From assembly GCF_009914755.1 (NCBI RefSeq), contig NC_060944.1: a stretch of DNA of 64,000 nucleotides, one strand, 5' to 3'. The notes beneath the pieces were generated by a model that saw only the letters and a program-made list of their open reading frames with translations, had not been told where the DNA came from and made no database searches. Source of the stretch: the human T2T-CHM13v2.0 reference genome, Homo sapiens. The position numbers were made by a program, and so were the translations under genes. Shown piece by piece: positions 26,407-26,868 of the stretch (position 1 is its first letter; each line of letters begins with the position of its first letter).

Positions 26407-26868
<462 letters not shown>

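What the first reader, a model, noticed from the sequence alone, without database searches (positions are those of the whole stretch)
26546..26575. Perfect 30-bp inverted templated insertion inside an AluY, copied from 2.9 kb away
Seen: CATCCAAATGTGGAGAGTCCAGCAAGGTCC interrupts the AluY just after its A-rich linker. It is the exact reverse complement (30/30) of 29516-29545, which lies in an ancient MLT1 LTR. TAGC flanks both sides, and a few Alu bases (about CGGGC) are missing. Because the host is a young Alu and identity is perfect, the direction is clear (LTR to Alu) and the event is recent. Inference: a germline break at the Alu linker was patched by transient invasion of a nearby locus (Pol theta / MMBIR-like) or by a nascent-RNA template. 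It leaves a 30-bp inverted repeat that could pair in pre-mRNA or seed a 3-kb inversion.
Basis: partly seen in the sequence, partly recalled or inferred. Interest (0 to 1): 0.8.

Follow-up and report, generated by a model that had tools for sequence, protein, structure and literature searches.

The report
Repair scar inside an old Alu
An Alu repeat carries a 30-base patch copied backwards from an old LTR 2.9 kb away, which is a real but ordinary scar of past DNA break repair with no sign of function and no clear date.

Summary
The 30-mer at 26546-26575 is the exact reverse complement of 29516-29545. At up to 3 mismatches these are the only two copies in the 3.1-Gb assembly.

The recipient is a complete AluY-type element with a 9-nt exact target-site duplication. 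None of the 29 closest genomic Alu copies carries anything non-Alu at this site. The donor lies inside a dispersed MaLR/MLT1-like LTR, and 8 of 11 paralogs run ungapped through the 30-mer columns. So the copy went from LTR to Alu.

The junctions show 1 nt of ambiguous overlap, a 2-nt TA filler and loss of GG. The same junction can be read as a TAGC duplication with loss of CGGGC. There is no poly(A) and no duplication of 5 nt or more. This is a templated-insertion repair scar, a known kind of event (MMBIR/TMEJ-type template switch, or class 2 TSIP-like patch).

"Recent" is not supported. The Alu is about 5% diverged, and 30/30 identity is still expected with probability 0.22-0.47 after 25 My.

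No gene is annotated here, and 30 bp is too short for efficient inversion.

One suggestive extra: the broken Alu end (AATAGCC) matches the LTR 118 nt upstream of the copied tract (P about 0.01 uncorrected). Interest is low.

The parts
26399..26407 (+). Left target-site duplication of the Alu (ATCTGGATG)
   Evidence: family D10: 26392-26407 versus 26736-26751, 88% over 16 nt; 9 nt exact.
26408..26545 (+). Alu left monomer and A-rich linker, up to ...AAAAAAAAATAGC
   Evidence: alignment to 29 genomic Alu copies. One search gives a sub-threshold 7SL/SRP match at 26408-26522.
26546..26575 (+). 30-nt insert, the exact reverse complement of 29516-29545. The first C could equally be the Alu's own TAGCC base (1-nt ambiguity).
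   Evidence: 0 of 29 related Alu copies have it.
26576..26577 (+). TA filler, matched by neither donor nor Alu. With the following GC it reads TAGC, repeating the TAGC left of the insert.
   Evidence: No longer template for the junction was found nearby.
26578..26742 (+). Alu right monomer (from GCATGGTGGC...) and poly(A) tail
   Evidence: One search gives a 7SL match at 26578-26720.
26743..26751 (+). Right target-site duplication of the Alu (ATCTGGATG)
29516..29545 (-). Donor 30-mer, read on the minus strand, inside the LTR
   Evidence: 8 of 11 LTR paralogs are ungapped across these columns, with 6-16 of 30 identical.
29336..29720 (-). MaLR/MLT1-like LTR in minus orientation. This is the minimum extent shown by paralog matches. 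The family name is recalled, not assigned by a tool.
   Evidence: 39 dispersed genomic matches besides self, of 40 scored. L012 aligns to query 1-340 and L013 to 26-203; multiple alignment.
29657..29663 (-). AATAGCC, a 7-nt match to the Alu sequence that ends at the break (26540-26546). It starts 118 nt upstream of the copied tract on the copied strand. Possible priming microhomology; suggestive only.
   Evidence: Null P(match of 7 nt or more within 200 nt upstream) = 0.011 for this primer definition; four primer definitions were tried.

Best explanation
This is a one-off mutational scar with no function. Some time after the AluY inserted, its top strand was broken, or a nascent 3' end stalled, between TAGCC and GGGC just past the A-rich linker. 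The free 3' end (...AAAAATAGCC) left its own template and used the plus strand of an old MaLR/MLT1-like LTR 2.94 kb downstream. It copied 29-30 nt, which therefore reads as the reverse complement. The end was then released and rejoined to the other Alu end by end joining, with a 2-nt filler (TA) and loss of 2 nt (GG). The donor was copied, not moved. Shown: the insert, its unique donor, the direction of copying, the junction anatomy, and the absence of retrotransposition hallmarks. Inferred: that a polymerase template switch (MMBIR/FoSTeS-like or Pol-theta-like) made the copy rather than capture of a free fragment, and which end primed. The general class, a templated insertion at a repaired break or stalled fork, I hold at about 0.9. 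The confidence given below is for the DNA template-switch version.
For: The insert is exact and unique: 2 copies in 3.1 Gb at up to 3 mismatches. The Alu is otherwise collinear and complete with a target-site duplication. 0 of 29 related Alus are interrupted at this site. The LTR is collinear with its paralogs on both sides of and through the 30-mer, so nothing was inverted or excised. The copy is inverted and on the same chromosome 2.9 kb away. That placement fits a nearby strand being used as template. Capture of a patch from a random genomic source would give no reason for it. The broken Alu end AATAGCC has a 7-nt match in the LTR. The match starts 118 nt upstream of the copied tract, on the right strand and in the right direction for priming. 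Null P = 0.011 from 20,000 random pseudo-donor sites in the window. Germline inverted templated insertions of 25 bp or more are reported at about 100 per person (103 and 99 in two individuals) and attributed to MMBIR-like switching (passages of PMC8421209).
Against: The microhomology directly at the junctions is only 1 nt on the left and 0 nt on the right, with a 2-nt filler. That looks more like classical end joining than microhomology-driven switching. The 7-nt match is not at the junction. Using it requires skipping 111 nt of LTR (29656-29546). The skipped stretch does not fold unusually (z = -0.37, 66 of 200 shuffles fold at least as well). It also contains CCAT sites that would have been better re-priming sites than the TCAT actually used (printout). 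After correcting for the four primer definitions tried, P is about 0.05. Pol theta insertions are described as locally templated, 3-30 bp, with single tracts rarely above 10 bp (PMC7165422 passages). This insert is one tract of 27-30 nt from 2.9 kb away. Sequence alone cannot distinguish copying from capture of a fragment.
Confidence: 0.55

Rival explanations
1. Patch capture. A free short DNA fragment, for example an oligonucleotide released while the break was resected rightwards past 29.5 kb, or a short cDNA of an LTR-containing transcript, was ligated into a double-strand break in the Alu by non-homologous end joining. This is the class 2 TSIP-like route.
For: The junction signature matches what the TSIP review lists for class 2: microdeletion, minimal microhomology and non-templated nucleotides, with no target-site duplication of 5 bp or more, no poly(A) and no TTTT/A site use (passages of PMC5110952; junctions). 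The donor is intact.
Against: Described TSIP donors are spread over many chromosomes (18 of 24 in the experimental set, PMC5110952 passages). Here the donor is 2.9 kb away on the same molecule. No transcript is annotated over the LTR (hub annotation). Rfam finds no RNA family at the donor. If real, the 7-nt upstream match has no role in this model.
Confidence: 0.27
2. Two events. A longer insert of about 141 nt was copied from the LTR starting at the AATAGCC microhomology and running to 29516. It later lost about 109-111 nt by a deletion between the short CAT repeats.
For: The 9-mer AATAGCCAT spans the left junction and recurs at 29655-29663 on the minus strand. CAT is present at both ends of the missing stretch (printout).
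Against: It needs two independent rare events at one site. There is no trace of the intermediate. The statistical support for the match is marginal.
Confidence: 0.05
3. The insert is not an inherited human allele. It is an assembly error, or a change acquired in the CHM13 cell line.
For: Only one haploid assembly could be examined here. No reads, other humans or other primates were available. The 30-mer was absent from the two other collections scanned, but these are not expected to hold human DNA.
Against: On general knowledge, consensus assembly of a unique region has no obvious way to create an exact inverted 30-nt copy of a site 2.9 kb away with clean junctions. Most features of this kind in a genome are old. 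My own arithmetic, not a call: uniform timing over 25 My, weighted by the survival of identity, gives about 4% for the last 0.5 My.
Confidence: 0.04
4. L1-mediated retro-insertion (target-primed reverse transcription, class 1 TSIP) of a short RNA at the A-rich Alu linker.
For: The Alu linker gives a T-run on the bottom strand close to the site.
Against: There is no poly(A) in the insert and no duplication of 5 nt or more; only TAGC is repeated. On the bottom strand the insert lies 5' of the T-run, so that T-run could not have primed it (criteria from PMC5110952 passages).
Confidence: 0.01

Closest known systems
MMBIR-linked templated insertions (MMB-TI), germline class (PMC8421209)
   Same: A short insert of 10 bp or more that is an inverted copy of a nearby template. 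Found as a germline variant without a larger rearrangement. Attributed to a dissociated or resected 3' end priming on nearby exposed DNA.
   Different: The published search only looks for templates within 100 bp; the template here is 2.94 kb away. Those events show microhomology at the junctions; here it is 0-1 nt at the junction, with only a possible 7-nt match 118 nt upstream.
Pol theta-mediated end-joining templated insertions (TINS; PMC7165422, PMC4490562)
   Same: An insert identical to DNA on the same molecule. Inverted orientation, as in intramolecular (hairpin or snap-back) synthesis. Length within the stated 3-30 bp range. Small flanking loss and single-nucleotide homology.
   Different: TINS are locally templated from DNA flanking the break, and single synthesis tracts are rarely above 10 bp. 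This is one tract of 27-30 nt from 2.9 kb away.
Class 2 templated sequence insertion polymorphisms (TSIP; PMC5110952)
   Same: A copy-not-cut patch at a presumed double-strand break, with microdeletion, minimal microhomology, non-templated bases and no L1 hallmarks.
   Different: TSIP donors are distant, mostly on other chromosomes, and enriched for transcribed sequence with an RNA intermediate proposed. Here the donor is 2.9 kb away in an unannotated LTR. Polymorphism is untested.
Short-range template-switch mutations (four-point model; PMC5453318, PMC9435742)
   Same: A reverse-complement copy is inserted by a switch-and-return event and creates a perfect inverted repeat.
   Different: Those events occur within tens to hundreds of bp, and the filter discards switch distances above 250 bp. 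Long-range switches were explicitly left out of the model.

Membership tests
Pol theta (TMEJ) templated insertion | Insert identical to DNA flanking the break, in direct or inverted orientation | tested here: met
   30 of 30 inverted identity.
Pol theta (TMEJ) templated insertion | Template local to the break (flanking DNA) | tested here: not met
   2940 nt lie between the arms. Criterion from PMC7165422 passages.
Pol theta (TMEJ) templated insertion | Single synthesis tracts short (rarely above 10 bp); longer inserts built from several tracts | tested here: not met
   One contiguous tract of 27-30 nt. No second template was found for the junction bases.
Pol theta (TMEJ) templated insertion | Dependence on POLQ | not testable with these tools
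   Needs genetics.
MMBIR-type templated insertion (MMB-TI) | Insert of 10 bp or more in inverted orientation to a nearby template | tested here: met
   30 nt, inverted, same chromosome. It lies beyond the 100-bp operational limit of the published tool.
MMBIR-type templated insertion (MMB-TI) | Microhomology at the switch junctions | tested here: inconclusive
   1 nt on the left and 0 nt on the right at the junctions. A 7-nt match starts 118 nt upstream of the tract, P = 0.011 uncorrected and about 0.05 after four tests.
Class 2 TSIP | No target-site duplication of 5 bp or more, no poly(A), no L1 endonuclease site use | tested here: met
   Only TAGC (4 nt) is repeated. There is no A-tail in the insert.
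Class 2 TSIP | Microdeletion, microhomology or non-templated bases at the junctions | tested here: met
   GG (or CGGGC) is lost, there is a TA filler, and 1 nt overlaps.
Class 2 TSIP | Polymorphic among humans; RNA-derived template | not testable with these tools
   No other human or primate genomes are held. No transcript data.
Class 1 TSIP / L1 target-primed insertion | Target-site duplication of 5 bp or more, poly(A) tail, TTTT/A target | tested here: not met
   criteria from PMC5110952 passages.
Short-range template-switch mutation (four-point model) | Switch points within tens to hundreds of bp | tested here: not met
   2.94 kb. Criteria from PMC9435742 passages.
AluY-type element (host) | Dimeric 7SL-derived structure, poly(A) tail, target-site duplication, close match to young-type Alu copies | tested here: met
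   The subfamily label itself rests on recalled diagnostic positions; no repeat library was available.

The most novel reading that the evidence does not exclude
The scar is one visible member of a largely uncatalogued class: short inverted templated insertions whose template lies kilobases away. They would be made when a stalled or resected 3' end reaches across a few kb of exposed single strand, either an uncoupled fork or a long resection tract. The end would first anchor on a longer microhomology (here AATAGCC) and then realign before copying. Published germline scans could not see such events, because they cap the template distance at 100-250 bp. Insertions inside young repeats, where the ancestral state is known from the family consensus, would then allow a census in complete (T2T) genomes. 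Donor distances in that census would measure how much single-stranded DNA is exposed at human germline lesions.
Probability: 0.15. Interest if true: 0.5.

Novelty: new member of a known kind. Interest (0 to 1): 0.22.

Why it matters
As a single locus it matters little. It lies in a gene-poor stretch with no annotated gene, changes only a repeat, and shows no sign of function. Its modest value is as a very clean textbook case: the host Alu supplies the ancestral sequence, the donor is unique in the genome, and the direction of copying is unambiguous. It also sits in a distance range (about 3 kb) that systematic scans for template-switch mutations have excluded by design. A census built on this kind of case could therefore show how far a broken or stalled DNA end searches for a template in the human germline.

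Tried and rejected
1. A third source copy, or spread through other Alus. Rejected: only two places match in 3.1 Gb at up to 3 mismatches.
2. An inversion with duplicated breakpoints. Rejected: both the Alu and the LTR are collinear across the arms.
3. L1-mediated insertion. Rejected on junction anatomy.
4. A known RNA family at the donor or insert. None found; only sub-threshold Alu/7SL and Alu-derived miRNA-family hits.
5. A longer template for the TA/TAGC filler. Junction-spanning 7- to 10-mers have no informative nearby match. One 9-mer, CCTAGCATG, occurs at 21414 on the minus strand, which is within chance expectation.
6. A hairpin in the skipped 111 nt that might explain a polymerase jump. 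No support: z = -0.37.
7. A PRDM9-type 13-mer near the break or donor (degenerate motif recalled from memory). 7 matches in the window, none between 23315 and 37642.
8. Tandem repeats at either arm. None.
9. The 30-mer in print. 0 papers.
10. The 30-mer in genome contigs or viral contigs. 0 matches; these collections are not expected to hold human DNA.
11. How rare such scars are. In the 64-kb window, 22 exact repeat pairs of 20 nt or more passed the complexity filter. This pair is the only isolated one that is not part of L1 or Alu homology and not a local duplication. In 40 other fetched loci (129,607 bases, each about 3 kb) 5 pairs passed the filter, and all read as Alu sequence by eye. A wider census of neighbouring chromosome 20 could not be run, so no rate can be given.
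12. Earlier findings of this scan were not open.

Full report
**Observation**

The window reads ...TACAAAAAAAAATAGC CATCCAAATGTGGAGAGTCCAGCAAGGTCC TAGCATGGTGGCAGG... at 26546-26575. The same 30 bases occur on the minus strand at 29545-29516. A search allowing 3 mismatches finds only these two places in the window, both perfect, and 0 of 100 shuffles gave any match. The repeat finder lists the pair as 30 nt, 100% complementary, with 2940 nt between the arms. In the whole assembly (3,117,275,501 bases) the 30-mer, at up to 3 mismatches, occurs once forward and once reverse. The backwards-pattern control gave none. Outside the 30-mer the flanks are unrelated: 23% and 28% identity over 40 nt.

**The host**

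The interrupted element is a complete dimeric Alu. It is flanked by ATCTGGATG at 26399-26407 and 26743-26751 (9 nt exact; 14 of 16 over the extended repeat) and ends in a poly(A) tail. Its two monomers give sub-threshold 7SL matches at 26408-26522 and 26578-26720. These stop on either side of the linker plus insert.

A genome search with the Alu returned 43 matches (40 candidates scored of 6578). I aligned the 29 fetched copies. Their majority sequence runs ...TACAAAAAAATTAGCCGGGCGTGGTGGC... without interruption. 0 of 29 copies carry anything other than A-rich linker between TAC and TTAGCC, or anything at all between TTAGCC and GGC(G/A)TGG. The 30-mer is therefore foreign to the Alu. I call the element AluY-type from recalled diagnostic positions; no repeat library was available.

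**The donor**

Read on the minus strand, 29720-29336 has dispersed relatives. 40 of 76 candidates were scored. Besides the self match, 39 lie on many chromosomes, and most cover query positions 1-140 or 284-385. With relaxed scoring, L012 aligns over query 1-340 (62% over 352 columns) and L013 over 26-203. Both run through the 30-mer, which is query 176-205.

In a multiple alignment of the donor with 11 paralogs, 8 of 11 are ungapped over the 30-mer columns, with 6-16 of 30 identical bases. The best are 16, 14, 14 and 13 of 30, similar to their identity in the flanking 60-nt blocks. The other 3 of 11 have 6, 23 or 30 gapped columns there. So the 30-mer sits in its family context in an old LTR. 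The label MaLR/MLT1-like is recalled from the conserved ...TTTCCCAGCCTCCCTTGCAG...GCCATGTGACTGAG...GCCAATGG... blocks visible.

Together with the Alu evidence and the absence of any third copy, the direction LTR to Alu is secure. The donor is intact, so this was copying and not excision.

**Junction anatomy**

I compared the window with the majority Alu sequence.
- The most economical description keeps TAGCC and GCATGG, loses GG, and gains 29 templated nt plus TA. The C at 26546 is ambiguous between Alu and donor, which gives 1 nt of overlap.
- On the right there is no overlap. The donor continues GAAGAGC where the Alu junction has TAGCATGG.
- No nearby template explains the TA/TAGC bases.
- There is no poly(A) in the insert and no duplication of 5 nt or more. 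On the bottom strand the linker T-run lies 3' of the insert, so it could not have primed it. L1-type target-primed insertion is excluded by the criteria quoted in PMC5110952 (passages read).
- Both host elements are collinear across the arms. This excludes an inversion with duplicated breakpoints.

**A possible priming site**

The 9-mer AATAGCCAT spans the left junction. It recurs on the minus strand at 29655-29663, inside the same LTR. Its Alu-derived part, AATAGCC, is the sequence that ends at the break. In the LTR it starts 118 nt upstream of the copied tract, on the copied strand. A 3' end annealed there would therefore synthesise towards the 30-mer.

For 20,000 random pseudo-donor sites in the window, the chance of a suffix match of 7 nt or more within 200 nt upstream is 0.011 for this primer definition. 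It is 0.009-0.018 for the three other definitions I tried, and none of those gave more than 6 nt at the real donor. Corrected for four tests, this is about 0.05.

Using this site requires the end to skip 111 nt (29656-29546), for example by an aborted first round followed by re-annealing on CAT. The skipped stretch has no unusual fold (z = -0.37). It also contains CCAT sites that would have been better re-priming sites (printout). I treat the match as suggestive, not established.

**Mechanism**

The sequence shows a break or stalled end in the Alu, patched with a copy of a nearby sequence in reverse orientation.

I favour a DNA template switch of the left-hand 3' end onto the plus strand of the LTR, followed by end joining (0.55). 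The reasons are that the donor is on the same molecule within a few kb, the copy is inverted, and there is the possible 7-nt anchor. The geometry would fit either of two situations. One is a leading-strand end uncoupled by about 3 kb from its fork, which then switches to the lagging-strand template. The other is invasion from a resected break. Both are inference from general models (MMBIR/FoSTeS as summarised in PMC8421209 and PMC5453318; passages read).

Classic Pol theta insertions fit poorly. They are described as locally templated, 3-30 bp, with single tracts rarely over 10 bp (PMC7165422, passages) and in close proximity to the break (PMC4490562, passages).

The main rival (0.27) is capture of a free fragment or cDNA by end joining. 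The near-absence of junction microhomology and the filler bases fit this rival well (class 2 TSIP features; PMC5110952).

The two-event variant, an artefact or cell-line origin, and L1 insertion together take the remainder.

**Age**

The Alu differs from the majority sequence of its 29 relatives at 13 of 258 compared sites. That is 7 of 46 CpG positions and 6 of 212 non-CpG positions, or 2.8%. This points to an insertion some 20-30 My ago at about 1e-9 per site per year; the rate is recalled.

The 30-mer has no CpG. The chance that both copies stay identical is 0.70-0.84 after 6 My and 0.22-0.47 after 25 My. Identity therefore hardly constrains the date.

With uniform timing over 25 My at 1e-9, weighted by that survival, my own arithmetic gives about 0.39 for the last 6 My and about 0.04 for the last 0.5 My. 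The event is more likely old and fixed than recent. This remains untested, because no other human or primate genome was available.

**Consequences**

The hub annotation lists no gene or functional element in the window, so pre-mRNA pairing has no substrate. Only short spurious open frames overlap the region. Thirty base pairs is well below the homology length usually needed for efficient ectopic recombination in mammals (recalled), so an inversion seeded by this repeat is unlikely.

**How unusual it is**

In the window, 22 exact repeat pairs of 20 nt or more passed a complexity filter. All but three belong to L1 or Alu homologies. Two of those three are local direct duplications, and the third is this pair. 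In 40 other fetched loci (129,607 bases; pairs within about 3 kb only) 5 pairs passed the isolation filter, and all read as Alu sequence by eye. A wider census could not be run.

In print, germline inverted templated insertions of 25 bp or more number about 100 per person (103 and 99 in two individuals), but the search there is limited to templates within 100 bp (PMC8421209). Template-switch scans discard switch distances above 250 bp and leave long-range switches out of the model (PMC9435742; PMC5453318). The kind of event is known; the 3-kb range is under-sampled. A full-text search for the 30-mer itself found 0 papers. Supplements were not consulted.

**Verdict**

This is a real, clean and unique templated-insertion scar, and a new member of a known kind. 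It has no indication of function and no basis for calling it recent. Interest is low. It would rise somewhat if a census showed a distinct kb-range class with upstream microhomology anchoring.

Noticed in passing
window 38356-38456: A perfect 36-nt direct repeat (38356-38391 and 38421-38456) brackets a 29-nt filler (38392-38420). The filler contains a palindrome, and its last 12 nt are the reverse complement of part of the repeated unit. It sits at the edge of an L1 fragment. It looks like a second, local duplication-plus-templated-filler repair scar.
   Followed up: partly
window 27570-28870: Several diverged direct repeats with spacings of 618-634 nt (families D2, D5 and D16; 74-87% identity) suggest an old tandem duplication of about 620 bp or an element with internal repeats. 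It lies inside the 2.9-kb spacer between the two arms.
   Followed up: no
window 1680-2385 versus 37620-38330: Two L1-like fragments in opposite orientation, about 36 kb apart, share many exact runs of 20-41 nt. They form a far longer inverted repeat than the 30-mer pair.
   Followed up: no
window 29295-29314: A run of 20 T on the plus strand (A on the minus strand) lies directly downstream of the LTR's 3' end. It pairs at 95% with the Alu poly(A) tail at 26720-26739. This is a low-complexity inverted match close to the 30-mer pair.
   Followed up: no
window 58141-58162, 49244-49256, 53017-53029 and others: The recalled degenerate hotspot 13-mer CCNCCNTNNCCNC occurs 7 times in the window, against 0.84 expected from shuffles. 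Two of the matches lie in antisense Alus and two overlap each other at 58.1 kb. None is within 3 kb of the scar.
   Followed up: no
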